This document shows positions 1-22,000 of a stretch of DNA of 64,000 bases, one piece after another (within the stretch, counting starts at the first letter, position 1; the number at the start of each line of letters is the position of its first letter). Both the position numbers and the translations under genes were made by a program. The stretch lies in the NCBI GenBank assembly GCA_036172245.1, contig JAYWIR010000043.1, positions 930,001 through 994,000 on the forward strand. Reading direction: 5' to 3'. The notes beneath the pieces are model-generated. The model saw only the letters and a program-made list of their open reading frames with translations. It had not been told where the DNA came from and searched no databases. The DNA is from Raillietiella orientalis (lineage: Eukaryota).

Positions 1-3000
1 CGCAGGAAGAGGCTCAGCCCCAGCCCCTTGCCTGCGTCTCTCTCTTCCCCTTTCTTCCCTTTTTCTTCCCCCTCAATGCCGATCTTTCTTCCCCGGGGGA
101 CTCGACGAACTCCCAGCCTGGCAAGGGAACACCGGGGGAATTCGATCCCCTCCGCTATTGCCCCTCCCCCCCGGGAGGAAAGGGGCATTCCGATGGAGCT
201 CGTCCAGGCGGTTCCTCTTGGACGCGGCGCTCGGCGGGACCTCTGTCCTGGATGGAGTCCCCTCCGAATCCCGGATTCCTCCCCCCTCCCCCCCACGCCT
301 GTCGAGTTCCGGTCCGTCCTCCGCTCTTCCGGATGGCTCCCGGAGCCCGCGCGGACTGGAGATGATCGTGGCGGAAGAAGATCGCGTCTTCCCGCGCAGG
401 TCGCCTGCATCCTCACCCCCATCTCTCCCCTATTCCCCCAGGAAACGCGACGCACGGAGCCGGGGTGCTCGCACCCCGGCGTGACGTGACGACCCTTTCG
501 ACGGCGAGGACGGCATCCTGGAGGGCGGACTGAACTCCCGGCAGGGTCACCACCAGAGGATGTAGAGCCACCTCTCTCAGCGCGCGCGAGCGTCCCTGGC
601 CAAGTTTTCGGAAAGAACCAGGAAGACGAAGCGCTTCCTGGAAGGGGAGAGAGGCGTGCGACTCCCTCCCCAGATGGGGGGGGAGAGGTCATTCGGTCCG
701 CCGCGTCCTCTCTGGCGGAGAGAGTTGCCCCGTAGCGCCACCTCGTGGGAACGAAGGCAGCCGCGTCGGCAATCTCCCTGCTTCCTGGATCCGGACGCAG
801 CGTGGTGCGGGAGGCGCCAGGGGAGGGCTGGCGCTTCGTCCCGCAGTGGAAGGGAAGCGCGAGCGCCGCGCTCGCCGTTGCCAGGAGATCCGGGAATTCC
901 TCTAGCTCGCCGTCGTCGTCGGGCCCGTCCCGGAGTAGGGACGGGGAAACTCCTCCGTCTCAGGGGAACTTCGGGATGGGGGACGAGGAGATGCGGAACG
1001 CGGAGCGGCGAACTCCCTCCACCTCTCAGACGGAGCCTCCCAACGCCCTCCCGGGGAGGGTTGCTACGCCGCGGTGGAGGCCACGGTTGCTACAGTCTTC
1101 GCGTCGAAGAAGCGGGATGTTGAGGGATTCGATGCAGCGGCTCGCGACTATTTGCCGCTGCCCCCACCGCTCGTTCCCCACCATCGGACTGAGGACGCAT
1201 CTTCCCTGAACGGCCGCGAACGCATCTCGCGTGCTCCGCATTTCGAAGAGGATCCGATCCTTGAGGATCGGTTGGAGCATCTCGCAGATGTCTTCAGAGT
1301 CGTGAAGCGTTTTCCAATGTTGCGAGTCCCCAGTGCAGCGTCCCGCTCTCAAAGATTACCATCGAAACAAGTGCGGGGGAATCGGAATTGGAAAACTCCC
1401 GGGCAAACGAAACTCCAGTAAATTCAGTTTTTCGCCTTTTCCTTCCGGAACCCCGCTCCCCTGGCTCTTTACACCTTTGCGCACAAGGAGTCATTCCGAA
1501 GGGTCGCTTGGATTTTAGGGCAACGCGAACGTTCAGGTTACGAGCGTATCTTTTTGTGGTTGTTCCTGTTCCTTTCCTGTTCCCGTTAGTTTCACTACGT
1601 ATTAATAGATGGCAGGCTCCGCAGGAGTCGCTGCTTTGATTTTTTGATCATCGGACATTTCGACACCGCACTTTAGTCATCGTGAAAACAAGGAGAACGG
1701 CTAATCACAAATACTTTACCAATGGCCATGTCGGTCCTTCGAGTGCTCGAAAAGTGGACGGACGACATTACACGCATGCGTGCGCATTACGCGTGCATTG
1801 GTACGTACGACCGCATCCCGCGGTCTCACTTCCCAGCTCTGAATTTAACCGATGTAATCGGAGCACTGTGGAGCTCCCCACAAAGCATCTCCGGAAATTG
1901 TTCTTTGGAACAAACTGAAAAGCAAAACCAGCGGGAGCCGTCCAAGTTTTTTTTTTTTTGTTTTTTCAAAAAAAATCGTCCAGCTTCTCGCCTGAAAGGA
2001 AACCGATACAAAGCCGTAGAGGAGGTTACTTTGATGAAAAATTCTTCCTCCTTCAAAGCGTTGCGTCCTCGCCTGCTGAACGTCCTTGCAAGCTCTTTCA
2101 ACTGTGCTCTTTCAAAGTGGTGAGGCTGCTTCCCGAAGGTGCCGCGTGCAACCAAGCGAGGGTGGCCTAGCGGGCCCAGTGGCCTTCCGCTGCACTTCGA
2201 CTGAGGACTTTTAGAAAAGAGGTTTGGTACAAACTTTTGAATTTGTCTTCCGTTGGGAACATCAACATGAAAACAGAGGATTTTCCATATCTCACGGTAA
2301 ACTTTGGAAAATTAGAACGGGAAACCTCGCGCCATCAGTGAATTGGTTTCCGTACGGTTTCCGAGAAGCAGCAAGCACACTTGGTAGTCCAGAGCAAACG
2401 TCCTCTCCTTATCCCCCGATCAGTAGCATCATTGGTTTCAAATATTGGCTCGTGGCGTTTTTGATTGCACACCTTCCAGAAGATCACTTTTGCAGAAACG
2501 CGTCCGTCAAGCCTCGAGTCTTGCGTACGAATTCAACTGTACGAAATCGCACGAGTCGCGGGGATTGGGATGCCTGTACCAGGTGTTACCAGAAGTGAAT
2601 AGCATGAATAGCAGTCCAGCAGCACGCGCACCCTGGAGAACCCCTGTCCAGTTCCTTCTGGGTGATGTTGCTGCAACTGGTGAGGTTTGGCTAGTTGTTT
2701 TTAGCGGTAATGATTGAATGAACTTAAGTTAGCAGCCACCATCTTCTTGATGGATTCGTTCTCTTACAACTGCGAGCAACTCAGCCACGGAGACAGCTTC
2801 CAAATTTTCGATCTGCAAAAGATTCTTGTGCACGTGCATGCGGACGATCTGACCGAAAAGGGATGGGTGGAAGGAAAAAAAAAAACGATTAAAGAAGAGC
2901 GATCGGTCCGAAATCCGTGTGCGTGGCCGAGATGGATCGGATCCAGAGAAGAAAGGGGCTGTTATCTCCTTGCAAAGTTCCATGGTAACCACCTCGATTC

Positions 3001-3086
3001 TTGGAGGATTTTGGTCAGTGGGAGGGAAAAAGTGGTACACGGTGTCCTAGAAGAAAGCGTCTCTGCCAAAGACGAAGGCAGCGCCA

Positions 3087-3327
3087 GATAGTCTGAAGAT
3101 GATTTTATGCTTCCTGTTTCTTCTCCCCTTTTGCTCCACGAATATATTGTTCTTCTATCAATTTTGAACATCTTGCTTATCTCCTCCATAGTCATTTTTT
3201 TCCTCGTCTACTACTTTCAAAACACGTTCTCTGAGCTCCTCACTATACGGTCTCGGCCTCTATTATTATTCAATGCCATATTATACCTTTTTATCCCTTG
3301 GGGGAAACATTTTTTGGGTTAGCTATA
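3087..3327 (-). mobile_element. Bacterial IS630-family element, left end plus N-terminal HTH fragment of the transposase (pseudogene)
   Basis: Minus strand reads RPYSEELRERVLKVVDEEK, then a +1 A frameshift, then MTMEEISKMFKIDRRTIYSWSKRGEETGSIK. This fits the IS630 HTH pattern YSxDLRERV...IxRxTIYxW. The end TATAGCTAACCC starts with a TA dinucleotide at 3327. Truncated at ~3087. Confidence 0.8.
3280..3285 (-). promoter_or_regulatory. Possible bacterial -10 box (TATAAT) upstream of the IS630 transposase
   Basis: Perfect TATAAT on the minus strand ~25 nt before the transposase coding start; no good -35 element. Confidence 0.3.
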
Positions 3328-3330
3328 GCA

Positions 3331-3650
3331 ATGGGGGAGCCGCGAAGAAGGAGAAGTATTCTTGGTGAGTATGTTTGATGTTGTTGGGCATTTGGTTGTA
3401 GGACCGGAAGCAAAAAAGAGAGAGAGAAAGGATACAAAATAACCACCTGTGAAAGAAAAACCAAAACCTGCAACGGAAGGCAAACCGAAACCACCAGTAG
3501 AGAACAAAACCTCCTGTGGAAAAAAAGCCAAAACCTTCAACTGAGGAAGAACGAAAACCGCCAATGCAACCAACAGCGGAAGGAAAAACAACTGAAGCAG
3601 ATAAGGAAACCACTGCTGTGGCAGATGGGGGGGAAACACCACCACCAGGA
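3331..3650 (+). pseudogene. Degraded bacterial lipoprotein-like ORF with Pro/Lys/Glu-rich repeats
   Basis: Across frames: basic N-terminus (RRRR), hydrophobic stretch (VFLVSM..MLLG), AFG-C-RTGSKKER, then PPVKEKPKPATEGKPKPPVENK / PVEKKPKPSTEEERKPPMQPTAEGK. Contains stops and frameshifts and ends at the IS5 left end. Confidence 0.4.
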
Positions 3651-4462
3651 GACTTCTGTCAAAATCGCCAGGGAGGGGGTCAGATAATATATTTGGAAGA
3701 GTGAAATACGAGGAAATAAAAGAGTTAGGAGAAGAAAAGTTTCGACGCTTAACCGGGATAACAAAAAAAAAGCAACACTTAAGCGAATGGTGGAAATTCT
3801 AGATGAGGAGGATAAAGGGGAAAAAGCTAGAAGTGGAAGAAAAAGTAAACTTTGTGTAGAAGACAGGTGGGACTGGAATCCACTGGAATACATGAGGGAA
3901 TATCGTACATATTTTCATATAGGCCAAAGTTATGGCATGAGCGAAAGTAACTGTTTTAAAATGATAAGGTGGACAGAAGACACATTGATAAAACATCCAG
4001 ATTCTGCATTGCCTGGGAAAAAAGATCCATTACATAGTGATACAGAATACGAAGTTTTGGTAATAGATGGAACCGAAACACCAGCAAAAGCGCTTCGACT
4101 CTGGAAAGAAAAAACAGTAACAGAGAAGAGTAGAAAGGTCGTATGTACATCTTTCTCCAGTGGTAGGAAGCATGATTTTAGGATGCTTAGGGAATCAAAG
4201 GGAGCAATATTACTGCAAGCTGAAATCTTAGCTGATGCTGGCTACAGAGGAATGCACAAAAATGTTGAGTTACCTCTCAGGAAAACGAAAAAGAATCCGT
4301 TGAACAAAGAGCAAAAAAAAAAGAACAGAGCTCTTTCTGGCCAAAGGGTGATAGCTGAAAACGTAATTGGCTCATTGAAAAGATTTGAAATCATCTCTGG
4401 CAGATCGTGGAAATAGCCGAAACCGTTTTGGTTTAAGATTCAATTTGATTGCCGCTGTTCGC
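3648..4462 (+). mobile_element. IS5-family insertion sequence remnant with probable left end; right end missing
   Basis: gagacttctgtcaaaa at ~3648-3663 lies ~50 nt before the transposase start and resembles ISL2/IS702-group terminal repeats (recalled, not searched). No matching right inverted repeat is seen. Confidence 0.65.
3701..4462 (+). pseudogene. Bacterial IS5-family (ISL2/IS702-like) DDE transposase, degraded
   Basis: GTG at 3701 gives MKYEEIKELGEEKFRRLTGI. After a frameshift near the A-run at ~3765 it continues as ORF 3787-4416 with LEYMREYRTYFHIGQSYGMSES, VLVIDGTETP (D1), GRKHDFRML, LADAGYRG (D2) and RVIAENVIGSLKRF (E). A further frameshift gives the typical tail RNRFGLRFNLIAA. Small deletions lie near 4080-4115 (QKRFDSGKK is out of frame). 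No introns. Confidence 0.9.
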
Positions 4463-7400
4463 TCCCTGATTTTGAGCTCCCTCACAGATGCAGACAATCT
4501 GAAAACTCAAAGTCGCTGCCGTGTGAAGGGAATGGACGTTCCGAACAAGACGGAGGAAAGCAGCGATTCGGACGACGACGCTGGCCGTCCATGGCGGGGT
4601 CACGGACTGCCGAGACGTATCGCTTCCTGCACGTGAACAGAAGGAAGACGGTGCAGCCGTATACGAGGAAAGAAAGTGTGAAAGGAAACGTCAGCCCGGC
4701 TGCTGAGCTTCCCCAGCGTGGCACTTCACTAATCGAAAGAGAAGAGTTCGATCTTTCGGATTCAGGGACTCCAGAGACGATCATCCTTCCTGCTTCCAGA
4801 AACGCGGAGCTTCCAGAACGTTACGAGCAGGCGGATGACGACGACCGAACCTAAAAGAGTTCAAAAGCGTTTGCTTTTCCCAGACTCACGACATTGGAGC
4901 GATGGTGGTCATCAAGTGCGTAACTTGAAGCATTTCTAGAAGAGAAGGGCAAGAAAGGATGCTGCTTCTTGAAAGAAAGTGAAAGAGCTCGTCACTGATC
5001 CTCCAGAGGTCACGAACGATCTCCGAGAGGCATCAGTTTGTCCTGCCGTCAAGTGCGAATGCCACTGTGGTCGTTCTTCCTTCTGGTTCCTGCTGGACCG
5101 TCCGAGAGGAACGAGAAGCGAGCTCCGAAGAGCGGGCGGAGGGAGGGAACAACGGGTCTTCCCTCGCGCACGGTGCGCTGCTCTTCGGAAGAGACATCGC
5201 CAGCACTGTGGATGCGCTGTCCAGAAGCTGCCCAGAAGCTTCAAGAAGCTCTAGCCGTCTCGGAATATTTCATTACTCATAGGATGGGAACAGCGATCCG
5301 CTGTTTACACACGCGAAGCGGAAGCTTATGGTCGGCGTTCTCTAAGAGACGGAAAGCCAACAACCGTAACCAAGAATGGAAGAGAGCTCCTGGGACTCTG
5401 AGACTACCATCTTTGGGATCGAAAGAAAACACTTGAGTGGGATGCACAAATAGAAAAGCGCGAACCGGCAACCAACCTCGAGAAGGAAACCGTGAATGTG
5501 GCCGAGGGGAAGAAATGGTTCATTGGAGATCAAGAATATCGCACAAGCACTTTGCTTAGTCTCTTTGGACGCGCGTCTCACGCTGAGGAACATTCGGCAG
5601 ACTACCAAAAGCGTTCCATGAAATGAAAGACCTCTCCAGGAGCTACAAAAACAAAGAGTTTGGGTTGCCTTTTGCTGTTCCTTCCCATCTCATCTAGGTG
5701 GAGCTGGTGAAACTGGGATTCCCTGGGGTACGTCAGCACGACCAGTGGTCCAACCGATGCTTCCAATGTACATCCTCGGAGTGCTGCATGTTCAACGTTT
5801 CCATTCTCGCAGCCACCCGAGAGCATCCTCCCTCTTGAACTCTTGAGCCCCGGTCAAGGATGGACGTTGGATTGGTATCACACCGCCCTCCCTTCCTTCG
5901 AGTGAAGAGAGCTGGAGAGAATCAACTCTTGGATCTCTCAGAAGCCTTGCCGATGCTTTTCATCTGATCCCTCGTAATTTTCGTGAACCCTAACTTTTGC
6001 GTGGGTGCTTTCTCATAGACACGGGTATCTCCTGCCTCCCTTCCCTATCCTTTACGCCTTTCTCTTCGTTTTCCATTTCAGGAAAATTTCTACCCTCAAC
6101 GCACTCGGTACTTGGAGCGTTCCCAGTTGGCCAACGCGATGCCACACGATACGCGAACTGGAATTTTTTTTTTTTTTTCTTTTTGCGCACACGCGTTCGC
6201 ACCACCTGATGGTTTTCCGTGCTCCGTCTTCACATAAGCGCCAGTCTCCTTTTTTCCCCTTGCTTCCTACCCTAATCCCCATTCTCCCTCCATTCATCCT
6301 CGAAGGAACAGATCAGGGATTCCTTCCACACGAGGGATGCCAAGATCTTCGTGACGGAACGCAACAAGGGCACAACCCTCGCCCTTCTGTCCACTACTGA
6401 GGAGGAGGAAGCAGGTGGATCCTCTTTTTCAGTGCCCTCCGACAAACTGACCCATTTGCGCCTCCCCTTTAGTCGCTTTCAAGGATCAGGATCCCCGTTT
6501 TGTGCTTCAGCCGATAACTACTACGTTTTCTGAATTCAATCATAGGATCACCGGTCGACCAGGGTCATTGGAAACTGTCAGAGGAAGGAGAGCATCCCTA
6601 AAACAGAACCTGATTCCTTTTTGCCCGTCCCTGGCCAACTGAGTCCAGTGGTGCAGTTGGAGTCGGTAGACACCTGTAGCGACTGCTGGAAGAGAGGAAC
6701 CGGGAATTGCTCTTCGTGTCTCCATTCATCTTGAGCATCCAAAGGTCCTCGGGTTCCTACCTTCATCTTGTTGGGAACCGATGGGAAGCAGGTCTTGCTG
6801 AGACTCTTTGGACCGTAAAATGTCATCTGTAGAAACCCATTTTGCTTCCAGGGTACCCATCGCCGCACAGGCGCGTTTGTTCCTCTTTTCCCTTCAGCGC
6901 CCTGGGCCCAAGTCCCTTGTGGTCTCGGTTCCCCATGTGGGGTTTTCACCCTTGCCTATGGTTCCTGGTGAAACTTTCGGCGGTGCATGTTTGGTGGAAC
7001 GGCATGGAAATTGATCACAGAAACGAGATGGTCCGACAAAGAACCCCTCTGGCAAAGTGCGAATAACCAATTGCCTTTGGAAGGCAAAAGACAACTGAGA
7101 GTGCTGAAAGGACTTCAATCGGAATGTAGCGCCTGGAAGGTCCGCGAAGCTTCAACGAAGTTTCCAAAACTCCACTTATTTTCCGTTTAGCGAGAATGAT
7201 CCGAGCCGCAGTCACTCTATTTCCGCAGGTGTCCCGCAGATTGCTTGAACGTCCTGAAGGAGTGCTTGTACCGGATATAAGGCTGCCGATCATGCGAAAG
7301 ATCAGTCTGGTCCGAGGCATCTCCCTCTCCGAAGTGACTTTCGAGCTGGGCCATGCTTCCCGAGTAAGAAGCGTGGTTCAGCTTGGATCCAAGAACCCCA

Positions 7401-8829
7401 ACCCGAAAGCCACATTCTCCGGAAATAACAGCACTTTAAAACAAAAACAGCACCATGGACCATTGAAAGACAAGGATGGAAATAAAGAGAATATGAAGAA
7501 TATAAAGGAAATGGTGAAAGTAAGGAAAAACATCTCTCTCTTTATTGCTGGCATGTTTTTCCAAACTTGTCACTATAAAGGAGGTAAAACTGAGAAGGGA
7601 GGGAGCTGGGGGTCTCCAACCGGCCAATAGCGGGAGTCGCTTTTGCAAGAAACTGGTTCTTCAGAGCGAAAGTCGAGCCGACTTTTCCTGCTCTGGAAGT
7701 TGCCCAATCTGGCCGATAGCCCAGGAAGACGCACGTCGAAGAAAAGGGAGTACTCACTGGAACTGCCTCACCTTTTTGCCCCCAAGGAACTCCCGGCTTC
7801 GATGAGCAGAATAGTGGCAAGGCGACCGGGAATGTGGAGCAGGAAACATGACGAGACATTCAGGCAGCTCGGGGGTCCCTTGCACATAGGAAGAAAACCT
7901 GGAGCCGAGGGTAGTGCGTTCCAGTTGACAATCCGAACGTGTGCAGGGATCACATTCTTGGGCCACCGCTCTGGAAGAACAGTTCGGTGACCACAGATGC
8001 AGAACCTCTCTTGCGACCGGATGACCAGATAGTGGTCATCGTGGAGGATCCCCCACTAGGATTCAACTGGTGCAAGAAAACTATTAACAAAATTATGGAG
8101 TTATGGAACAAAGAGGGACTTCTGAAGGCCAGGAATGCATGATGTTGCCCTGCCGAACTATGGATGTCGAAATTGAACTCAGACCTCCATTTGGTGATGC
8201 AGAAAAAGGAGGAAACGGGAACTCGGTCGCGAAATCAAGTTGCCAGACGTCTGGAGCTCCAAGAAAGATGGAAGGAAGCCGATTCGACAGTGAGCTGGGG
8301 GACTGCGGTTTAGGTGGTTTTCCTGGTACTCCAATCTCGAAAGAAAGAGGAAACGGGAATCGAAGTTCACTTCTTTCAATTTCCAATTCTGGTCGTCGTT
8401 CGGGATCTGTACTTTTCCCTGTTTCTGTCGCTCAGAGAATCTGCTCCTCCCGGGTCCTTCGCGAAACAGCAAAGGTGTTCATGATTCCTGCCTTCGCACA
8501 GAGATGGAAAGAAATGTTACTCTTTATTCGAACATCGAAAGGAACAACAAAAAGAACGGAGACACCTTTTCGCGCGTACTCTCCGAGCTGTTTCTCCATG
8601 ACAAGCGCTGTGACAAGCGCACCTCGTGCATGCAAGAGGCGAGACTCACCGGGGCAACTCTCCGTTTCGTGGATGCCGCTTCGAAAGGAGGGTCTCAGGC
8701 GTCCTAATGGAGAGAGACTGCGGTTCAGATCAGGGATGTCCCATCTGCTGAGCTGTCCTCGGGTGATCACGCATAAAAGATTCGCGATTCCTCGCGAAAA
8801 GGAGGATCCTTCCCGCTTCCGTTGTCCAG

Positions 8830-9300
8830 CTTAACGTTGGATGGTGGAAGTCTCGTGACACTGCGGGTGTTCACGTGAACATGAGAGTGTTCCTTGCTGA
8901 GCTCAGGGCTCTATCGGACTCCCCGCCGCGTAAGACCTTCCTTTCGGCATCGGCTGTCTTCGAGTCTCTACGGCGTTGCCCGTGGCCAGATTTCTGATGG
9001 GCTTCTTCTAGGATGGCTTGTCGATCTGCACTCTGTCGTCTGGAAGGCGTCCTGGCAGCCCCTGCGTTCAGTGGATGTCCCGGCTGTGCTGCGTGCCAGG
9101 AAGCGCCATCGTCGTGGTTCGCATGGATTCTTGAAGTTTCCAGCTCCGGCAGGATGTCTCCGTTGTTGGGCCAATGTTCTCAAGAACTGGTCTTTGGTTC
9201 TCTTGGGAGCGAGGAGGGGAAACTGTAGCTCCAGTGTCTCACATCTTTTCTTCCCTTCTTCTCGAGCTGCTGTTTCGAACGCTGCCCATACGCTTCCGAA
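8830..9300 (-). mobile_element. Decayed LTR-retrotransposon (probably BEL) integrase-region fragment
   Basis: Minus strand RQAILEEAHQKSGHG (~8978-9022) fits the H-H half of the integrase zinc-binding motif; upstream LRTLAQQ and HDDG..GRL echoes. Confidence 0.35.
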
Positions 9301-10762
9301 ATGGTCAGCGCGCTTTCAGCAGTCTAATGTGGTTCCTTTCTCTCGGAACGAGGTCAGGTCGCAGTGGCGACCCACTCGCGGTATCCCTTGACTGATGACC
9401 TGTTGGATCTTTTTCTTCCTGGATGGGACCAGCATCCCCTCGAAGGGCAGGATGAGACACGACAGTAGGGGAGAAAGGGAGCAAACAAAAGAAGAAAAAA
9501 AAGAAACAAAAATAAAGGGAGGGTGGGGGTAGGGGTGCCGGGAGAGACGTCACATTTTGCTGGGGGCAGTCCTCTGAATCCTCTGCAGGATGCCGGTAAG
9601 CGCTTGCTGTTTGCAGTGCTTCAGGAGAAGCCACCGTGCCATACTCTCGAATCGGGCCGCAAAGTGGATGTGGCCCCCCTGTCTCTCTGCCCTTGCGTCG
9701 TTCCAGGCAACTACAATCCCGCGTAGGCAGCAGCAAAGAGCTGCTAGCAAGGCCGCGAACGAAGAAGGGGAGGGCGCAGTGTAAGTGCACATGGAGGCGG
9801 CCAGGGTTGTCCTTTCGTTTCCTTTCGACGTTTTCTGGGCGACGTTTTTCTGCAGAACGGTTCGTCTTCGGTTTGGTTGCGGAAGCTGGGAAAGGAACCG
9901 GAGATCGAGGATCTCACGAGGGCTCACGGTTTCACCCTGTATCTCGCGATCTGCAAAGCCGAGGTTCGCTTCTTCCTCACTCTGTGGGAGAGAGCGTGGC
10001 AACTCGTGTGAGTCCACTGGAACCTCCAGAGGATAGCGGACCTTCCTTTCTTCGGCCACTCACCGGCGAGCGGGAAGAGAGCATCTACAGGATACTCTGC
10101 AGTGACGCAGCGTCATCCTCGGAACTTTCGACTCCTTGGGCGTCGCCGCCGCGAGATGGGAAGTGGGAGGCCACCTGGTGAGCGGTTCGCGCCACTAATG
10201 TTCTTCGTGTGTCCCTCAGGTTCATGTGCCGCTCCCAAGACGACGGGAGAAAGACATGAAGACTCCCTTTCCGGGACTGCCCCGAAGGCAAACTCCATTT
10301 CCGCCGAACCTTCCGAGCTACTGGTATCCTGCCATCTCCCTGCCCTTAGGGGCGATCCGAGCTGCCCAGAAAAGAGGGGTCTGAGTTGTTGGCCACGCAG
10401 GGAAGCCGCCAAGAACGACGTCCTTCTTGTGGTCGGCAGGGCGGGGAGCACACGTGACCTCTGGCGGCGGATACTAAGATCACGCCGCAGGACCTGGGAA
10501 TCAGCTGAAATTCCCGAACTTTTCCCTGGTGCGAATCCAGCGGGCCGGGAGTGGCTGCGACGGCGATCGCAATCACCTCAGGGCTTCCAAAACGCATCTG
10601 TTCTGCTTTAGGTCCACGTGCTTCCTCCTGCTTCGCATGAAGGCATCAGCTCGAAGCACGAATGTTCCCAAAGTGTGCCATGCAGGCACACTTTGGGAAA
10701 GCGCTCTCTGTCCCCTCTGTCCCATCCGACAAACTTCCAGATAAGCACAGATGTTACAACCG

Positions 10763-10810
10763 TTATCTCTGATGTAACGGCCGGGTTCCCGACCGTTACA
10801 TCAGAGATAA
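10763..10810. repeat. Near-perfect inverted repeat (hairpin)
   Basis: ttatctctgatgtaacgg (10763-10780) is the exact reverse complement of ccgttacatcagagataa (10793-10810); inner cggg/cccg can extend the stem after one mismatch. Confidence 0.95.
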
Positions 10811-11199
10811 TCACACACGCGATAAATACATCCATACACACACACATATAATTTTTACCGCTGCATAAAAAGTTCATAACGCATTATATTATGTATATAT
10901 ATACGTACATAGGCAACGGCCGATGTACAAGTATTCCCCACATCAGCGTAGAGGGACGGAAACTGCGGGTTGCCGAGGGAGAGAAAGAGGCAGTGCATCA
11001 TCTTGACCTTACTTGGACGGAAGCGTGCATCTTACTAACCCGTTCCCTCTGGAGATTTCGAATGCACACGGAAGAGGTAGAAGAAGCAACTGGAAAACCT
11101 AGCAACGTCCTCCGTTTGTCAAGAAACTTGGAAGAACAATTGTCCAAGCAACCAGAGCGAACAAGACTTTCAATCGGGCTGTTGAGTGTGCAGCGATAC

Positions 11200-11660
11200 A
11201 GTTAATGAAAGCACTTCAAGGTCGCAGTAGTCGAAGCTCATGAAGACGGATGTTCGGGATAACAAGTCGAATTCTTCTCCAAACATAGATAAAGGAGTCT
11301 GCAGCATCTTGTCTTGGTGACCCTCGAAAGCGTATCTCCCTCTCGGCAATCGGCAGTCCCCATTCCTCTACGCTTAAGGGACCACCCATTACTTTGGACG
11401 TTCTGCTCGGAAACTCATGCTAAGGACACACCACGCTTACCTCAGAAGGGCGAAGTCCTTGGATCATATTTCTCCACGGACAGTAAGACTAAAGGGGAGC
11501 CATGGCACAGAAACACTGGAACCTCCAGCATGTTCCCTGAGCCCCAAACCCCAAAAATGGTTGAGCTTGGTGGCCCAGGCCCTGAGGCTAACGCCGTTAG
11601 CCTCAGGGCCTCGAACACAAAGTAGATCTGTGGAAAGAGCTACGATGGCTTCTTAGGTGG
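11200..11660 (+). mobile_element. Decayed BEL/Pao RNase H-region fragment
   Basis: TPRL (~11428), HWNLQHVP..PNP (~11515-11555) and WWPGPE-like (~11568-11586, across a frameshift) resemble BEL TIPRLEL, WRHVPGxxNPAD and WWxGPxWL. Confidence 0.4.
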
Positions 11661-11679
11661 GGGATGGAGACGATCAGAC

Positions 11680-11890
11680 GTCGAAGGACACGTCCCGGAC
11701 GTTGTAGGAGGCGTGCAGCTGGCCACCCTGCTGAACCGCGCGGCGCATGACCTGCCCACCAGCTCGACGCAGCTGCTGCTCTTCACGGTCGCAATGACCT
11801 ATCTCATCGATGTCCAGCAGCATGATACTTTCGTGGCGCAGATGGATGTTGCGGTAGAAGCAGTCGTTCTGCCGCTTGTTGTCTACCCCT
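11680..11890 (-). pseudogene. Glycosyltransferase family 92 (DUF23) gene fragment
   Basis: Minus strand VDNKRQNDCFYRNIHLRHESIMLLDIDE, frameshift, VIATVKSSSCVELV ... HASYNVRDVSFD. Matches the GT92 core NDCxYRN...hLLDIDE(V/I)I (DxD motif) and the downstream SYNxRNVYF segment as recalled from arthropod members. Confidence 0.6.
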
Positions 11891-12399
11891 TCCTTCGATG
11901 AGGCGCCTTTCTTTCAGGGAAGCTACATCAAGAAGCGAAGACTCATCCCTTCCTCGTTACGAAGGAATTTGCGTACTCTTCCGTTCTCGCCTCCTCGTCT
12001 AAAATCGAGAGAAGTCCCCCTCCTCCTTTAATAGATGTGAGTTGGCACGTGATCAGCTTAGTACCCTATTAGCGTTTTGGGCTTCTTTCAGGGTGAAAGG
12101 AGACGGAACAAAGAGGCCCCTCGTCGACCGACGATCACTTCTGGAGACATTCTGGTGGATAACCAGGACATTCTGCAGACAAGGGTCTGCAGAATGTCCT
12201 GGTTCCCTACAACGAGTTTCTTCTGATCTTCTCTTTGTGCACTGCCGACAGATGGTGACAAGGAAAGAGGCTGGCTCGTTTCATAAAGTCTCTGCGGCTG
12301 CAGTGAATCCTCAAAGGTTCAGAACCTTCTGCGAAGTTCAGGGACCATTTCTCAGCATCCCAAAGTGCTCCTCACGTGGGTTGTTCTCGTAGGCCTCCT

Positions 12400-14540
12400 C
12401 CTCCTTCCTTCCGTTCAAAGTGCAACGACTCGAGTGACTCAAGAATAGGTTCAGCTGGTCCATCTGATATGCAGCTATAAAGGGCTGAAGTATTAATGAT
12501 GCGAGCGATGAAATCCAAGAACGGAGCCTTGCATCTCATCTTTTCGGGGGAGCAGGGAATCATCGATTTTTTTTTTCTTTTTGCAGCGCAAGCAGCCTCG
12601 CACCCGTACTCACCAACAGGAATAAATGCACCACGTATGCTGCAATCCGAAAGGGGAAGGACGGACATCCACTGGAAACTCGCTCCAGGGTATCCCTGAG
12701 GAAAGAAGCGATTCTGGAACCTCATAAACTTTATTGTGGAAGCTCATCTTCACTGTTTGTGTGTGGGAAACACCGGATGCCACTTTGGAATTACCTGCAA
12801 CGGATCCGGAACAAAGATATCGGAATGCAACAGGAAGGCAGCCGTGAGCCATAGCAACAGGTCATGTTCTCAGTAACCCACACTCCGGAAAATATTCAGC
12901 CCACCTGCCGGAAAAAGAAGGGGAAAAAACGAAGTAACGGAGGACAATTCATCCACTGCGCGCATCCTGTTTAACCGTAAGAGCTTTCAATGTCGAGACG
13001 TACCACTCCTCTTCAAGGCATTGCTAAGACGTGAGCATATTCCTGTGTGAGGCTGAGCAGGGAGCGTCGCTGCGGCTGACAAAAGGAAACTGCTTTGCCG
13101 TGGGCGTCTCTCCGGAATCCCTCATAATGGCTTTCCTCTTTGCTCGTAACAGTACGGAAACCGTCGATGCTCTCTGCAAAGGCAGCAGACGAATTGCTAG
13201 AGAAACGCCTGGAACAACGCCGGAAACAGGGCGGACGCACAATACACGGTGAAGAAGACTTCGCTCGCAGCAGACACGTTAAAAAGGGAAAGCAAGAAAA
13301 AAAGGCTATAGCAATGGTGGAGTAGAAGTTGTAGAGTCGAATGAGCATGGAAGCAAGCACAGAGTGGAACAAAGCTGGTTGGCTGATGCTAGCAGAACGG
13401 GAAAACTCGACGGACCAGCGAGACAGAGGTGTATTTGAACGAGCGTTCCAACCGAGGACTACAAGAACTGTTAAGGAGCGAGCATTGGGAGTGGTGTGGA
13501 GTGGCTCAGGGTCGTTGCAGATTGAGATTCGAGAAAGCGGCCAGATGTGGCAGAGGGGATGTGCAAATACGTGGATAGGTGCAAATGAGGCATCCAGAGC
13601 CCATGACCACAGAGTCCGGGACCACAGAATTAAATTTTCCGTAGCCTTTCCGTAATAGTACTGGACACCCATTTTTATATAATTCCTGTGCCACACAAAA
13701 GCTCTGATAGTGGAAGATGGGAATTCTTTAATTTACTTTTTCGCTTCAGAATAACCGAAGGAAAGCACTCGAATTAGCAGCCACCTTTCGACCTTTGGCT
13801 TGCACATGGGATGAAATGGCTTTTCTGAAGATCATAAGGTAGCGATGGCAAAATTAGCTTGAAAAATGCCTCGTTAGAAACACCGACTGCACAAGTTGTT
13901 TCTGTTCCAGGAAAGTGGGGAACAAATATATATATGTAACGAGAATTATCAAAACACCAGAATGCGTGTTCGTCCTTGAGAACGACGAAAGAGGTGAAAG
14001 TTCCAGAACAAGTTGAAAGGGATGCTGACCTAAATCTCCTCGGATCTGCATCTGTAAATAATGGCATTTCGGCTATCTGGGTCACCGAAGGAAACCTATG
14101 AAATTTTTTCAGCCACGCTGGGGAAGAAAAACAAGGGAACCCGCCGCTCCCAGAGCCGAGCTCTCTCCAATCGAGTACCGCAGACGCCGAGAATTCGTTA
14201 CTCCCTGCATCCGCTGCTTCGTCGGATGACCAGCGGATTCCAGTGGGAAACGAGGCTGGCGGAAATGAGCGGGGCAAACAAAATCGAAGCTCGCTATTTG
14301 TGAAGAAGAAAAAAAGAAAGAAAAGGAAAAACCAAAGCAAAAAATCTCTGACACACTGACCACAGGATGAATTTATAATGACGCGCTCTGCTCTGAGTTT
14401 GCCGGTGAGGAAGATTGGAAGCAGAGGATTGCTGGCCAAGACACAGAATGGTCATGAGCCAGAAATGAGCTGCTGCTATCTTCATCGACAATCTTAAAAA
14501 ACCCACTTTGGAAATAACGGCCACTCCCATCATGGGAGCA
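12400..14540 (-). pseudogene. Possible decayed SV2/SVOP-like MFS transporter gene(s)
   Basis: GYGKFN/LILWSRTLWSWALDASFAPIHVFAHPLCHIW (~13655-13540) resembles the SVOP N-terminus GFGKFQ...WMADAME...LHCEW. Exon-like blocks with ag/gt borders give LFRI-VAG and GYPGASFQ..IRGAFIPV; GIFQANFAIATL near 13870. All frames are broken. Confidence 0.3.
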
Positions 14541-17500
14541 AAGGAATGCGGAGCCGCTGCTTTTTGCGGTGCGGGGTTCTGGACGGGAAAGCGCCACCAG
14601 AGGGGACTTCGGTGGACGCCATCGTCGAGGCGGAGCCGCAGAGAATTCCCACTGCCCCATCTCGAAACGGATGGGAAATGAGCGGCGTTCGGTTGGCGTT
14701 GCCCCCTCCTTCCTCCCCATCCAGCGGTGGCCCTCACTTGGCAGCAGCGCCTCTTCGTGAGCGTCCAACTCGTTGCCACCTGCAGCTGACGGCGGAAGCG
14801 TCGCCCTCGAGAAGCGCGTGTGCGAAGCGGACACGGGGAAGGCCGGGCCTCCTGTTCAGCCAGCTGTCTGGCTGGGGAGACGTATTCAGGATCGAGGGAA
14901 TGTCCTCGAGAGGAACGGAAATGCAGCCACCTTCGAGGCTCGTGGCGGTGGTCAGAGCTGCGACCTGTGCAGTCCGCGGGTACCGACGCACCCAAAGGAC
15001 AAGTGGTTCCGCCCCGCACCACTCGGAGACTCGGACCTCTCCCACGCAGGCTTAGAACGCTGTCTGATCGAAGGAGGAGAGAGACGCATCTCCCAATAAG
15101 ATTCGCGCGTTCCCGTGGCTGGAAGTACTTTCCTCCAGCTGGTGCCAGCCCCACTTTGCTGCTTAACGGTTGCTCGGTTACTCTACGCTCATCCGTCCAC
15201 GCGACTACCGTGGCAACAAGAAGCGCCGGGGATCCTCCAGCCTCATGTGCCTTTCAGCTCCAGCAAACCGGTGAGAAGTCACAAAGAGTGCGCGCGCCTC
15301 TTGCCTCTCGTTCCTTTCTGAAGCTCTCTTTTTTCTCGAAGAACTTCTTTCTCCCTTTCGGGGAAGGACTCCCGCTCGATGAGAAGATGAGGGAAGATCC
15401 TCCGGCTGCCCCTGCAAGCTTCGGACGGCCAGTTCCCTCGGCAATTTTCGATTTTCCGATTCCTGGGATGGAGCACTTCGCAGGTATTCGTCCCTCTTGC
15501 TGAGGCGTTCTCCCCCTTTTTTCTTGTCGCCATCTCTGCAGCACCCAGAGTAATCGGGTGTCTGCTGCTCGCAGCCCCGCCGGGAAAGCGAGGCATCAGT
15601 CTTTTGACTCTTTTGCGTTTCTGCCTCTTCTTATTCGGTCCCCTTCGAAGCTGCGTCTGTGTATGTCCCGCGTGCTCGTGTCGTCCTTTCGCCGCGCTTC
15701 CCTTCGGTTGACGGCGCGCTAGAGTCGCCAGTGCCCCCCCCCCCCATCAGAAGAAGTTTGGTCGGACCATTCCATCGCCTTTAGCACTCGTCGATCTCTT
15801 CTTCCTTGCCGCAAAGGGTGCATTGAGACGCACAAGCAATAAGCAATGTACTTATACATATGTGTGTTTACAAGCTTCTCAGATCGATGCGGGAAAAGAG
15901 ATAGTTCCGCGCGAAGAGAGAGACCATCGTCTCTCCTTGGTGCGATGCAGGGTACCTTTAGAACCGCAGATGTTCATGGATATCCACCTCCTGCTACAGG
16001 AGGACGTTCCCTCTTCGAAGCCTGCGTCTCCCAACAGGGTTTCTGACTCCGAGCATCCTCCCTGTCGCGTCTCTAGTTTCGTTTTCAGGGCCCGAAACGC
16101 CAATCCAGAGGGAGCCGCTGAAGAGGAAGTGTGCGCCTCGGACAGGAAGTGCAGCTTTGAATTCGACTGCTGCCGTTTGCTCCGTTTCCGTTAGGCTCCT
16201 TCCTGGAAAACTCCCTCGGAGTCTCCAGGAAACGTCTGCATATAGCATGATCGATTCTTTTCCGTCTGGTTGGCTGCGTTGCACGGAGTGGGAGGTAAGC
16301 GCGATGTTCCGTGCTGCCCCGTCGATAAATGACGTGGGGGGATTGATCCCTCTACTGGTGGCGCGAACTTCCCTTTGTAGCACTGAGGTCATCGTTTGTA
16401 GGGCTACGTACGAGTGGGGGGTCACTGGAAACAGAACGGCGTGGCGTGCAAGGGAAGCAGGGAGCGCTCTCCGCTGTCCGCGATGTGGACAAGGAGGCAT
16501 CCGGCTGCTCAGGAGACCTGGGGAAACCGTTAGCCGAGGGAAAAAAATCCCCCCCTCTTTAGGGGCGTTCTCCTTTGTGCACACAGGGAGAGGAGGAGCG
16601 GCAGTGGTCCTCGTGCGCTCTCATGAGAGACTGACTTCCCCCACGCACAGCTCATCTGCAGCCGAGATGCAGAGCTCTCTCTCTCTCGAAGCGCCAGGCA
16701 CCTCGCTGTGCTCCTGCTTCCCGTACGTTCTTCCCCCCCCCCCCCCTTCCCTTTGCTACGGTGGTTCCCGAAGTCTTCCCCTCGGGCGAAGCTGCAAGCA
16801 AAACATAAGCAAAAAGGAAAGAGCAGCGTATCGCCTCCATGGAATAATTAGATAATGGCTTCTTGTTGAGAAGGAGGATCTGCTCTCATTTTTTGCTACG
16901 CCTCCCAGAGGCGCGTTGCTATCGATGACGCCGCTCGGTGACCGCGCTACTCCAGAAAGCGCCAACTTTCAGAAAATAGGAAGATCAATACGGACCTTTG
17001 AACTTCACGGCCGTAACTGCTGAAAACGGGAGAAACGCGCCGGACCCGCGGGATGGAATCTTCGAGAAGAGGCGTCAGTCACGTTAAGGGAGTCCGGTCG
17101 ACCATTTCGGGGCGTTGCACCCCTTGTGCTCGCGAACGTCGATGGGGATGGTCACAGAAGAAGATTGGCTGACGCGCCGACTCTTGCTGGTGCGAGTCTC
17201 CCCTCCGGGCCGAAACGTAGAAAAGGAAAAGGAGAAACTGCTTGTCCCTCCTTTCGCCTTCTGTTCTCCTCATCCTTTCTATTAGTATTTATTTTCCACT
17301 TCCTTTTGAAAGCCGGAGTGTTGCTGCTCCGAGTGTAATTCGTGGCGACCCAGGTGCGAACAGCGTGGCCATGCGGCGTTCGCAGCGGGCCCCGCCGAAA
17401 CAAGGCTGCAGAGACCTGACCCATGGCTTTCCTGTACTTTGTGTGGCCGCGTTTGTCTTTCTTTCTTTTTGCTCTCCCCCCCCTCCCGTTCCTCCAGCTT

Positions 17501-19036
17501 CTTCCTCTTCCATTCCCGGAACGTCTCGGCGGTGTTCAGCTTTCCAAGCGACACGCTCTGCCTCCCGGCGCGCAGTACGCGAGCGCCGTTCGAATGCGCT
17601 CCGCTGGCGGCCCTCCGCGAGCCGCCATCTTAGAAGCGAGCATTGTTGCGGCGCGTCCGGGACCAATGGCGTGCCTCCGAATCGCGAAGATGGCGGGCTG
17701 CTTGGACCGCGGAAGCAGCAGCCGCCATGGTTTCTTCGCCTCCATCCCTGGAACCCGGGAGCATCGCTTTCCAAGGTGATCCGGCGGTCCTCGCCATGCT
17801 CTCTGTGAGGGAGGAACACGTGCGTTCGCGGGCTGAATGGACGCCCTGCGAATCCTTATGGGCGCCTGAACTCGCTCGCCGAGGAACTCATTTGACCATC
17901 CTCGGGGCTGCGGCGTACCTTCCCATGCGTACCGATTTCCAGATCCGAGAGTGCAGCATCCGCTTGGGTTGCACGCAGCCACGAGAACACGGTCGTCCTG
18001 TACATTCGCATGCAGTGCATTCGTGCCTTATCACGGTACTCTGCCGGAGGGGAAAAGAAAAGGGAAAAAGGGATGGAAAAGAATTGCGAAGGAAAGCCGC
18101 AGACATTTGCACTGGCCGAGCATACGTACATGACCGTGCGCGACAAGTTGCCGAAGATGCGTCGCGTAGCTGTTCCGAGACTGAAAATCCCGCGTTTCTC
18201 AATCCGAGAAACGCGTTCTCGGAAAGCGCCAAGCATGCAGTGGGCCTCCTCGAGTGTTCTTTTCGCAAACACCGAAGGAAGGCGAAAGTCGTCCTCACGC
18301 GGCGTACACACCAACCCTCGGAAACACATCAACACGACGGGCAGTTCTCCTCTCAAGGACGATCCGAGCAAAGTCTCCTGCTGGAAGGCGCTGCTTTCCT
18401 TCTCTCTTCCCCCCACGGGGCAGGGGGCTGGGTCGACCAACACCCCCCCCCTCCTCCCCCGTGGTCAAGTGCTGGTCAGCGGTCCCAGCTTCAAGAGGAG
18501 GTTTCGCCTGTGTTTTTCCCCGTCTTTTCGAAATCGGTCACCTCCAGCTTTTTCAACTCTTCGCGTCGATTATCATCTCAGGGCACGCGGGATAATGCAA
18601 AAAGCCCTTTGGCGAGATTCTGAGTGTGATCGCTTAACCGAATGCACGCTTTGATCTTCCAAATTAAAACGCTCAGTGCATTCTTTTCCTCTTTTAGAAA
18701 ACGCTTTGAAATGATGGGCGTAATAATATCGTTGCTAGCGCAGAACAGTTTCCAGCGCTTACTTTCACTTTCTAAAACTTAGCTGGAAGGAAGAGACATA
18801 TAAGATAGCTTACAGGAATATATATAAAGAAATCTTTGCGGTTAGATTTTTCATTCATGTCCTTTTTGAAGTTCTTGTACAGATTTATTGTTCCACCCCC
18901 AGGAGATTCGGTCGTTTGCCGGCCCTTCGAAATGAAGTAGAAGAGATTCGTACGAATGTGTTCAGTTGTGGCGCCTCCATGTAGATCGGTCAGATTCCTT
19001 GGTTACGTGCTTCTTCTCGTCCACGTCTGCTACAAG

Positions 19037-22000
19037 ATGGACGCGATCGACTTCGTTTACCTGCAGCTTCATCAGATTCAGGACTACTACAGATGGACCA
19101 TCAGCTTCTCAGGTAAAAAAAATTAGCGAAATCCTATTACCAGTGGAAACGTTCCCCCCATGAGCGGAGATCTCCTTCCGATTACCTTTGAAAAGTTCCA
19201 CGGATGGAGTAAGAAAAAAAAAAAAGGAAAAAGGGAAAAAAATTTGCTTGCGAGAATCACCGCTGAAATTTGCTGCGAGAGAGAGAGTAATTAGCAGGCG
19301 TTGCTGTTTCGCGAAATGCGTGTGTTTCCGATGCTGCGCAGTCCGCACAACACCGAGGCTGCAAGGAAACCAACTTGATGTGGACGAAACCACAAAAGTC
19401 TTCTTCCTCTCTCCCTCTCCCAGCCGTCCAGAGCAGTGCTTTCCGTGTGTGCGTCCGTTTACCGTCCGTGCGCTGACCGAAGATCTTTTGCAAACGTATC
19501 TTTCAGATACCCTTTGATCGATGACGAAACTGAGGACTAAGAGTCACCCAGAGGTCGAATTGAATTGAAAAGTCAGCGTAAACATGCCTCGTGACCTCCG
19601 GCTTGCAATCGCATATGACACACCTGTCAGCCCGTATCGGAAAACGAACGAAATCGCCGTTACTGTTGTCGCATAGAAAGAGAACGAAAAATGCTCCGAA
19701 CCTTAACACTTGCAAAGTAGCCATTTGCGAAGGACCCACGTGTGAGATTATAATGAAATTTTTTGATGAAATTTTCGGAATAGACCGCGGGCTGTTGGCA
19801 GATGGAAGAATAAGTTCGGTTCCCATGTGATGCTGCTCGATAATCTGATCTTCCCCTGGAAGGGAAAGAAAAAAAGAAAAGGGGGAATGCGCGTTGCCGT
19901 GGGACTCATTCGCACCGCCGTCCGTTGAGGGTCTTTGACGCCGATCACTTGGCGGAGTTTCGATTTTGAGAGTTTCTCAAAGCATTCGAAATCCTCGAAA
20001 TCCATGAAACCTCGTGGGTTCGGCTCCGGAGCATGGAGTTGCATGCACTGCTGATGGTCTTCCCAGCCATCTCCCATAACCGACGCAAATGCGGCACTTT
20101 GAGGCGGATCCATAGCAACGAAGGATCAAAAACTGTTTCGACTCGGTTGCAATCGGCTCTGTAGCTTTTGCCCAGGGCGGACTGTGAACCGCAACTTCTA
20201 CCACTCATTATACTCCTCCTATTTACATCCACCTTCTTCCCTTTTATATTCACATCCGAAGAAAATTTCATAATCTCTAATCCCCTGACAACCCCTTCAC
20301 ACATTCAACCTGAATGATACTTCCTATTCGCTTACACTATCCTACGATCGATCCCCAACAAATTAGGAGGAGTAATTGCACTAATCTCCAGTATCCTCAT
20401 TCTCATTACCCTACCTATGCACAAATTCCCAACCTTACCATCCTCCCACTATTACTTCAGAAAAAAAATTCTTTTATCAAGACATATACCCAGAATGTAA
20501 GGAACGCTTCTCGTGCTCATGGAGCGAGGCTCCCTTTTCCGGAAAACAAAGCTTCGAGATTCTGTAGACTTCAAAAAAGAGAAAATCAGATAGGTAGATG
20601 AGAAAGCCTGACGTAATTTTCGGAGCTCGGCAGAACGAAGTTCAAGTTTGGTTGGTTGGTTGGTTGTTTCGAGGCACACGAAATATCACAAGAGGTATAT
20701 ATACCCTCTGACGGGGTTTAAAGCTTGAGATATGCCTTGTCGAGCTGCCACAGCTTTATCCACGGTGCGTTTGCCAAACCCCACCCCTTCGATCAGCATT
20801 CCAGAGTAAACTGCGGACTCTTATCTGAATCTGGTTACTTCCCAAATCGGTCATCGGCAACTGCTCTTCTGCATTCACTTACACTTTCCTCGCACTGCTC
20901 GCACACGATCACACACCTCAGAATCGCGGGAAGACCTTGGGAGAGAGCTTTGAAAGATGAATGGTGCCCGTAGGATGCCTTCGAGAGAGTCCGCGCTTGT
21001 TCTTGCTCTTGCAAGAACCACTGCTTGGAGTGCTCGGTGGCACGAAAAAGACGAAGAAGCTGAGATCTCTGGACCAAGGCGACTCTGTTTCGCGAAACGA
21101 GTTGCGTTGGTCCAGGAGAGGGGCCACACGCGGTAGGCGAAACGGTCCACGAAGGTGACGGAGAAAATGCGAGGCAAATCTTTCGGAACCGAACGAAATG
21201 CAAAGAAAAAGTTCCCACGCGGATGCCGGCAGAGTCGGAACGGAGTTTTTTTTGCGTCCGTCTTCTTCGCTTATCGGGCGGTTCCAGAAAGAAGCGCCGT
21301 CGAAATGGCAAAACGAAAACTGGAGTCGTTCACACTGATTAACTGCGTAATCCATCACAAGTCCCGAAAACCGCTGCAAACACACTATGGTTAGACGTGT
21401 AATCGACACGGGTCAGCTAAAGAATTGGGTTTTCCCGCATGGATCGCATGCGGTGGAACTGTTCCAACAGCGTACGGTGCTTTCTTGCGAGGAGCACTCC
21501 GCGGCAGGAAGTTCTCTGCGGGCTGTGATGGCCAGGGGGAGCCAAGCGAGCCCGGGTTCGGCGTTCAGAGTGCCGCAGGCGGCAGGCGTTTTCTGGACAG
21601 GGCATTTCGAAACGGAAGCCGGGAGTTTTCACCCCGTTCAACTCGAAGGAAACGGGATGAAAACCGCTCCGCGCCGTGCGGTATGATCCGACCGAGGGAG
21701 ACGTCGGCTTCGGGGCATTTTCCAGCCTCCCGAACCCCCAGGACCCCTTCCGTGTTCCGAGCAGCGGTTTCGTGTTTTGAAACGGACCGCAGGGGCCGCT
21801 CCCTCGCCCGTGACCTCAGCTTCCTGCGCAGAATCCCAGGGTCCAGCCGCACTGCCACTTCCTTCGGGTATCGATAGGGATCCGAATCCTCCGCATCCTG
21901 CGGAGGAAGGAGCAAGATCCCTGGCTCGCAAGTCGTCTCTGCAAGCTCGGTGGTTCCGATCGGTGGCACGGCGCGAGCTCGCGCTGGTGCGCAGTCGGAG

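What the first reader, a model, noticed from the sequence alone, without database searches (positions are those of the whole stretch)
3087..4462. Fragment of an IS-rich bacterial (endosymbiont-like) genome inside an animal chromosome
Seen: three intronless, AT-rich bacterial-type pieces packed back to back (IS630 left end and HTH on minus, a lipoprotein-like relic, and an IS5-family transposase with all three DDE residues), set in GC-richer eukaryotic DNA. Every piece carries stops, frameshifts or deletions. Known: these IS families are abundant in intracellular symbionts such as Cardinium, Amoebophilus, Wolbachia and Rickettsia. Inference: an old symbiont-to-host transfer recording a past or present infection. 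Two IS elements within ~320 nt suggest a heavily IS-invaded donor.
Basis: partly seen in the sequence, partly recalled or inferred. Interest (0 to 1): 0.8.

Follow-up and report, generated by a model that had tools for sequence, protein, structure and literature searches.

The report
Decayed Wolbachia DNA in animal chromosome
A 1.4-kb stretch of broken Wolbachia DNA (two insertion sequences flanking a piece of a surface-protein-like gene) sits inside arthropod-like nuclear DNA, an ordinary fossil of symbiont-to-host gene transfer.

Summary
Window 3087 to about 4480-4492 is one contiguous block of Wolbachia-like DNA in three parts. The first is the 5' end of an IS630 element on the minus strand (3087-3325). 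The third is a nearly full-length IS5-family element (3650-4480).

The transposase is 70-71% identical to Wolbachia IS5 transposases (next best 52%) and groups with them in a tree at 100/99 support. All three parts also match Wolbachia genomes at the DNA level (76-86%). Both inner junctions are IS insertion junctions, so the block was assembled in the bacterium and moved as one piece.

Every part is broken. Substitutions are spread over codon positions and skewed AT to GC, towards the GC-richer flanks, which fits neutral decay in the nucleus. The flanks show no Wolbachia similarity, and the window carries eukaryotic exons.

A second relic (3' end of citrate synthase gltA, 20917-21100) and a mitochondrial insert (cytochrome b, 20165-20500) lie 16-17 kb away.

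Read-level proof of the junctions was not possible. This is a known kind of feature and of low novelty.

The parts
3087..3325 (-). 5' end of a Wolbachia IS630-family element: the terminal repeat end near 3300-3325 and transposase residues 1-58, with one frameshift. It is cut off at 3087, the left junction with host DNA.
   Evidence: DNA is 83% identical to G001:C1:261351-261587 and 86% to G001:C1:248342-248488. Protein identity to L095:1574-1933 is 79% and 85%. The second ORF of that Wolbachia element hits NCBIfam transpos_IS630 at 8.6e-22. Wolbachia copies continue past the point matching 3087.
3326..3327 (.). TA dinucleotide at the junction between IS630 and the gene fragment. It is the TA of the uninterrupted gene (GATC-TA-GCAATGGG), as expected for an IS630 insertion.
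   Evidence: Alignment of the window with three uninterrupted Wolbachia genes. That IS630 elements target TA is recalled knowledge.
3326..3648 (+). Internal fragment (about residues 145-259 of 342) of a Wolbachia gene for an outer-membrane beta-barrel-like protein with a Pro/Lys-rich repeat. It carries stops and frameshifts.
   Evidence: 76% DNA identity over 323 bp to G038:C48:16057-16401 (E 3e-72), and 81% to G012. The ORF is shown and the tblastn match. Pfam gives only sub-threshold OMP_b-brl and Surface_Ag_2 hits for the Wolbachia ORF.
3650..4480 (+). IS5-family insertion sequence of a Wolbachia lineage. The left inverted repeat is at 3650-3667 and the transposase relic runs from about 3701 to about 4492, with seven indels. 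The right inverted repeat is not recognisable.
   Evidence: The shuffle test for the right repeat is negative.
20917..21100 (+). A second, separate Wolbachia-like relic: the last ~80 codons of citrate synthase gltA with an internal deletion, at 53% GC.
   Evidence: 74-75% DNA identity over ~100 bp to gltA in 14 of the 16 Wolbachia genomes (of 60 searched) that match, and 71-74% in the other two. See also the alignment, the tblastn match, and weak NCBIfam citrate synthase hits at profile positions 375-415 of 430.

Best explanation
The block is a non-functional fossil of Wolbachia-to-host lateral DNA transfer (a nuclear Wolbachia insert). In the donor Wolbachia, an outer-membrane-like gene had been hit by an IS630 element at a TA and, 320 bp downstream, by an IS5-family element. 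A fragment of that chromosome of about 1.4 kb was released in a germline cell and joined into a break in host nuclear DNA; the joining step is inferred and was presumably end-joining. One end of the fragment lies inside IS630 and the other lies at or just short of the IS5 right end. Since then the block has decayed neutrally and drifted towards the GC-richer host composition. It does nothing now. It records a past (possibly still present) Wolbachia infection of an arthropod-like host.
For: Donor.
- The best protein hits are Wolbachia IS5 transposases at 70-71% identity over 88% of the query; the next best (Chlamydiae) is 52%.
- The window copy sits with all 6 Wolbachia rows, out of 23 reference rows, at support 100/99.
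- At the DNA level the IS5 part is 77.6% identical to a Wolbachia copy. G001 holds 15 near-full copies of this element and G002 holds 7.
- Window 3060-3660 matches 36 of 60 Wolbachia genomes.

The block was built in a bacterium.
- The IS630 end abuts the gene at a TA of the intact gene.
- The gene similarity stops at 3648, one base before the IS5 left repeat at 3650.

Nuclear residence.
- The flanks have no Wolbachia similarity.
- The window has no N and holds ELO, NAP, GCP and G-alpha exons. The ELO exon is nearest to arthropod proteins.

Decay.
- There are seven indels in the IS5 copy.
- Mismatches by codon position are 36/31/60, against 16/8/54 between two Wolbachia copies.
- Changes from Wolbachia A/T to window G/C outnumber the reverse by 80:41 (IS5) and 33:11 (gene fragment).

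Precedent: Wolbachia DNA in host genomes is common (abstract of PMC4299567; PMC10083226 read in full).
Against: - No reads could be laid across the junctions, and no depth or population data exist.
- The nearest recognised host features are a mitochondrial insert at 20.2 kb and an ELO exon at 26.3 kb. That the immediate flanks are host DNA therefore rests on their composition and their lack of bacterial similarity.
- Broken IS copies also occur in living Wolbachia genomes (for example the fragments at L086 and L087), so decay alone does not prove nuclear residence.
- The right boundary is known only to within 4480-4520.
- The AT-to-GC skew is weak for the IS630 piece (12:9 and 17:15).
- No sampled Wolbachia genome shows the same IS630-gene-IS5 arrangement.
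Confidence: 0.85

Rival explanations
1. Assembly chimera or contamination: reads from a living Wolbachia were mis-joined into a host contig.
For: Junctions were not verified by reads. Wolbachia genomes do contain degraded IS fragments.
Against: The block is a small internal piece with non-bacterial DNA on both sides in a gap-free window. Substitutions are spread over codon positions and skewed towards the flanks' higher GC. A second relic at 20.9 kb is ameliorated even further, to 53% GC.
Confidence: 0.06
2. IS-assisted transfer: an IS end, or a break made by the transposase, produced or integrated the fragment, as proposed for an ISWpi4-containing insert in a butterfly chromosome.
For: The right limit of the block falls within about 40 bp of the expected IS5 right end. 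PMC10083226 (read in full) proposes such a link.
Against: The left limit lies inside IS630, not at an inverted repeat. The IS5 right repeat is not recognisable: 1575-1851 of 2000 shuffles score as well. No target-site duplication is visible at the outer junctions.
Confidence: 0.06
3. The donor was another intracellular bacterium (Rickettsia, Cardinium, chlamydiae) carrying related insertion sequences.
For: Related IS5 transposases occur in Chlamydiae, Rickettsia, Orientia, Spiroplasma and cyanobacteria.
Against: Those relatives are at most 52% identical, against 70-71% for Wolbachia. The tree groups the window copy with Wolbachia at 100/99. The IS630 and gene pieces match Wolbachia DNA at 76-86%. 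Non-Wolbachia genomes were not searched at the DNA level with those two pieces.
Confidence: 0.03

Closest known systems
Nuclear Wolbachia transfers (nuwts) in arthropods and nematodes, e.g. Drosophila ananassae and Brugia malayi (PMC4299567 and PMC3849323, abstracts seen)
   Same: Wolbachia DNA integrated into a host chromosome, and non-functional here.
   Different: This one is very small (1.4 kb) and consists mostly of insertion sequences. It is clearly decayed and ameliorated rather than recent, large or duplicated.
'Sequence X' on chromosome 7 of the butterfly Aphantopus hyperantus: ISWpi4 plus Wolbachia flanks (PMC10083226, read in full)
   Same: A Wolbachia IS with adjoining Wolbachia DNA inside an animal chromosome, standing out by base composition.
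   Different: The IS families differ (IS5 and IS630 here, IS481 there). Here there is no repeat at the outer ends, and one end lies inside an IS, so IS-mediated integration is not supported.
Genomic fossils of Wolbachia in Dictyocaulus viviparus ('palaeosymbiosis', PMC4046930, abstract seen)
   Same: Degraded Wolbachia fragments read as a record of past infection.
   Different: That case involves nearly 1 Mb in a nematode. Here only two small relics are seen in 64 kb of an arthropod-like genome, and the current infection status is unknown.
IS5-family elements of Wolbachia (ISWpi1 group, whose transposase is made from two overlapping ORFs; PMC2515875, passages seen). ISWpi19 and ISOt6 are named in PMC10083226.
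   Same: The Wolbachia homologues used here carry two overlapping ORFs (146 and 150 aa in G001), an A-run between them, and terminal inverted repeats.
   Different: Which named IS this copy belongs to could not be tested because ISfinder is not available. The window copy is dead.

Membership tests
Nuclear Wolbachia insert (bacterium-to-animal LGT relic) | The sequence is closest to Wolbachia rather than to eukaryotic transposons or other bacteria. | tested here: met
Nuclear Wolbachia insert (bacterium-to-animal LGT relic) | It is flanked on both sides by host nuclear DNA in one molecule. | tested here: inconclusive
   The window is contiguous without N, the flanks are not Wolbachia-like, and eukaryotic exons lie in the window. 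No reads or genome were available to verify the junctions.
Nuclear Wolbachia insert (bacterium-to-animal LGT relic) | It shows signs of residence in the nucleus: neutral decay and drift towards host composition. | tested here: met
   Codon-position spread is 36/31/60 against 16/8/54. The AT-to-GC excess is 80:41, 33:11 and 14:2. Seven indels are present.
IS5 family insertion sequence | A DDE transposase of the IS5 type with an N-terminal HTH. | tested here: met
   Pfam DDE_Tnp_4 and HTH_Tnp_4 score above their cut-offs. NCBIfam transpos_IS5_4 scores 87.8 bits, below its 140-bit cut-off, because of the deletions. The D, D and E columns are conserved; their catalytic role is recalled, not tested.
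IS5 family insertion sequence | Terminal inverted repeats at both ends. | tested here: inconclusive
   The left repeat is present at 3650-3667. The right repeat is not distinguishable from shuffled sequence.
IS630 family insertion sequence | A transposase with an N-terminal HTH and a DDE domain. | tested here: not met
   Only residues 1-58 (the HTH part) remain; the DDE part is absent. The piece is a fragment of an IS630 element, not an element. The Wolbachia homologue is IS630 by NCBIfam.
IS630 family insertion sequence | Insertion at a TA dinucleotide. | tested here: met
   The junction falls at the TA of the uninterrupted gene. Only one side of the element is present, so duplication of the TA cannot be seen.
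   The piece aligns to residues of about 145-259 of a 342-aa Wolbachia ORF, so it is internal.

The most novel reading that the evidence does not exclude
The fragment entered the host genome through an IS-associated break. The right junction lies within about 40 bp of the IS5 terminus, so bacterial insertion sequences may help to generate or integrate the DNA that animals acquire from Wolbachia. Together with the more strongly ameliorated gltA relic 16 kb away, this would also mean repeated transfers over a long association in a poorly sampled arthropod-like lineage.
Probability: 0.07. Interest if true: 0.65.

Novelty: new member of a known kind. Interest (0 to 1): 0.3.

Why it matters
The block is a dated-in-principle marker that this host lineage carried Wolbachia. 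It also preserves an old copy of two Wolbachia insertion sequences and of a variable surface-protein-like gene, which could help to time IS invasions in Wolbachia. For genome annotation, it should be masked as a bacterial relic rather than called as genes or removed as contamination. It does not change what is known about symbiont-to-host transfer.

Tried and rejected
- Sequencing runs for 2500-5100: none was listed, and no RNA holder was listed. No reads were laid.
- No whole genome is held for this window.
- Earlier notes of this scan: nothing by place, by sequence or by words.
- A protein search with the GCP exon found nothing because of the length filter. This search was wasted.
- I considered that the break at 3087 marks a group II intron or another shared Wolbachia breakpoint. 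Rfam found no intron in the window (1-9000) or in three Wolbachia loci. The ten-copy alignment shows that most Wolbachia copies simply continue past that point.
- IS5 right inverted repeat: not supported by the shuffle test.
- Continuation of the gene after the IS5, or of IS630 left of 3087: none found. A tblastn extension to 2992 has only about 3 identities in the stretch past 3087 by my own eye count, so it is an overrun of the alignment, not homology.
- Copies of the block elsewhere in the window: none.
- Rfam at gathering threshold over the whole window, and tandem repeats in 1-24000: none.
- Naming the host species: the ELO exon gave only 45-63% identity to varied arthropods and other invertebrates.
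- Naming the IS (ISWpi1, ISWpi19 or ISOt6): not testable here.
- A feature search with the cytochrome b reading under the mitochondrial code was not accepted and was dropped.

Full report
**What is in the sequence**

Window 3087-4480 is AT-richer (40.6% GC) than its flanks (48.8% on the left, 52.6% on the right) and falls into three adjoining pieces.

*IS630 piece.* On the minus strand, 3259-3158 and 3207-3087 read, in two frames, as the first 58 residues of an IS630 transposase. Against the N-terminal ORF of a Wolbachia IS630 copy (L095:1574-1933) the identities are 17 of 20 and 30 of 38 residues. The second ORF of that Wolbachia element hits NCBIfam transpos_IS630 at 8.6e-22.

*IS5 piece.* On the plus strand, ORF 3688-4416 (242 aa) hits Pfam DDE_Tnp_4 (3.9e-13) and HTH_Tnp_4 (2.3e-9). 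It also hits NCBIfam transpos_IS5_4 (7.7e-25, 87.8 bits, below the 140-bit cut-off).

*Middle piece.* Between the two lies 3326-3648, which has no family hit of its own.

**Donor**

A search of the large protein collection with the IS5 ORF gave six Wolbachia IS5 transposases as the best full-length hits, at 68-71% identity over 88% of the query. The next best are Chlamydiae at 52% and Neochlamydia at 48%, followed by Fukatsuia, Rickettsia, Orientia, Legionella and Spiroplasma.

I built a tree of the window ORF with 23 full-length relatives, chosen from the named or full-length rows among the first 50 hits; the 145-aa half-length hits were left out. The window copy falls in one group with all six Wolbachia rows at support 100/99, on a long terminal branch of 0.41.

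At the DNA level, 3650-4480 aligns to Wolbachia IS copies at 77.6% (L005) and 76.5% (L012). G001 (a Wolbachia of a beetle by the record title) holds 15 near-full copies, and G002 holds 7.

Window 3060-3660 was searched against 60 genomes of the same genus. Of these, 36 matched at E <= 0.001 and 24 did not. The IS630 piece matches at up to 83-86%. The middle piece matches in 5 of the 60: G038 at 76% over 323 bp (E 3e-72), G012 at 81%, and G046, G032 and G028.

**The middle piece**

In G038 the matching DNA lies inside a 342-aa ORF (L091:1068-2096). That ORF has an N-terminal hydrophobic leader, a Pro/Lys-rich repeat, and a C-terminus shared with a tandem paralogue. Pfam gives it only sub-threshold OMP_b-brl (0.0036) and Surface_Ag_2 (0.022) hits, so 'outer-membrane-like' is a weak label.

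The window fragment corresponds to residues of about 145-259.

**Junctions inside the block**

The IS630 end (...GGGTTAGCTA) abuts the gene at the TA of the intact gene's GATC-TA-GCAATGGG. That is where an IS630 element would be expected to insert; the TA target is recalled knowledge.

The gene similarity ends at 3648, and the IS5 left inverted repeat begins at 3650.

Both are therefore transposition junctions made in a bacterium. No sampled genome has this exact arrangement.

**Outer limits**

*Left limit.* Seven of ten aligned Wolbachia IS630 copies stay homologous to one another beyond the position matching 3087, whereas the window becomes unrelated there. IS630 is therefore truncated at 3087.

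*Right limit.* BLAST similarity ends at 4480, and the last codons can be followed to about 4492. The expected right inverted repeat is not detectable: 1733, 1851 and 1575 of 2000 shuffles score as well.

*Beyond the limits.* Neither the rest of the gene nor the rest of IS630 is present in the flanks.

**State of the pieces**

Against L005, the IS5 copy has seven indels:

| Position | Change |
|---|---|
| 3760 | +5 bp |
| 3878 | +3 bp |
| 4082 | -19 bp |
| 4114 | -25 bp |
| 4254 | -9 bp |
| 4406 | +1 bp |
| 4463 | +5 bp |

The N-terminal 25 residues are in another frame. About 15 residues after the first D are lost, with an out-of-frame patch in their place. The C-terminus is frameshifted.

The IS630 piece has a frameshift and the gene piece has stops.

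**Evidence for time spent in the nucleus**

Mismatches to L005 fall 36/31/60 on codon positions 1/2/3, against 16/8/54 between two Wolbachia copies.

As a rough inference of mine, this splits into about 49 substitutions with the selected pattern and about 78 evenly spread ones, roughly 10% neutral divergence. I give no age because no rate is known for this host.

Changes from Wolbachia A/T to window G/C outnumber the reverse by 80:41 (IS5) and 33:11 (gene piece). For the IS630 piece the ratio is only 12:9 or 17:15.

**Host context**

The window has no N. It holds exon-like ORFs for ELO (6.4e-49), NAP, the gamma-tubulin complex C-terminal domain and G-alpha (9.3e-59).

The ELO exon is 45-63% identical to proteins of many arthropods and other invertebrates, with no close relative. 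The feature search names Arthropoda as the commonest phylum. The host is therefore an animal, probably an arthropod from a poorly sampled lineage. I could not name it.

Wolbachia-like DNA was sought over the whole window in three ways:

- blastn of the whole window, in five overlapping or adjoining pieces, against G001 and G002;
- blastn of 4481-24480 against 60 genomes of the genus;
- blastx of the whole window against all ORFs of at least 60 aa of the G001 genome.

Apart from the block itself, only one further place appeared.

**Second relic and a mitochondrial insert**

Window 20917-21100 (+) matches the last ~80 codons of Wolbachia citrate synthase gltA. DNA identity is 74-75% over about 100 bp in 14 of the 16 genomes (of 60) that match, and 71-74% in the other two. 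There are weak NCBIfam citrate synthase hits at the right profile positions.

This relic is at 53% GC, with A/T-to-G/C changes of 14:2. It is thus more strongly ameliorated than the IS block, which may mean an older, separate transfer (inference).

About 400 bp upstream of it, 20165-20500 reads as the C-terminal part of cytochrome b only if TGA is read as Trp (Pfam Cytochrom_B_C, 5.6e-22 under table 5). This is a nuclear copy of mitochondrial DNA.

**Comparison with what is known, and verdict**

Wolbachia DNA in arthropod and nematode chromosomes is well documented (abstracts of PMC4299567, PMC3849323 and PMC4046930).

One paper, read in full, describes a Wolbachia IS with its flanks in a butterfly chromosome and proposes that insertion sequences assist such transfer (PMC10083226). 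Here one end of the insert lies inside an IS and the other cannot be placed at an IS terminus, so that idea is neither supported nor excluded.

The feature is a dead fossil of a known kind. What remains open is read-level proof of the junctions, the host's present infection status, and the age of the insert.

Noticed in passing
window 20165-20500 (+): A nuclear copy of mitochondrial DNA: the C-terminal part of cytochrome b. It is open only if TGA is read as Trp (Pfam Cytochrom_B_C, 5.6e-22 under table 5). It lies about 400 bp from the gltA relic.
   Followed up: partly
window 20917-21100 (+): A second Wolbachia-like relic (3' end of citrate synthase gltA, 53% GC, A/T-to-G/C changes 14:2). It is more ameliorated than the IS block and may come from an older, separate transfer.
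   Followed up: partly
window 1-32000 versus 32001-64000: There is a sharp compositional split: about 48-60% GC (up to 69% in 400-bp windows at the start) in the first half, and 28-44% in the second half. The NAP, GCP and G-alpha exons lie in the AT-rich half; the ELO exon (26.3 kb) lies in the GC-richer half. No recognisable genes were found in 1-26 kb among 90 of the 167 ORFs of at least 100 aa that were scanned.
   Followed up: no
L100, L101, L104 (Wolbachia genomes G002, G053, G006): A subgroup of Wolbachia IS630 copies loses DNA similarity to the other copies within about 10 bp of the position that matches the window's left junction (3087). No group II intron was found by Rfam in the locus of this subgroup that was scanned (L088, the G002 copy). 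The coincidence remains unexplained.
   Followed up: partly
L091:94-2096 (Wolbachia genome G038): Two tandem paralogous outer-membrane-like genes share their N- and C-termini but carry entirely different repeat-rich middle regions. This looks like a hypervariable surface loop.
   Followed up: no
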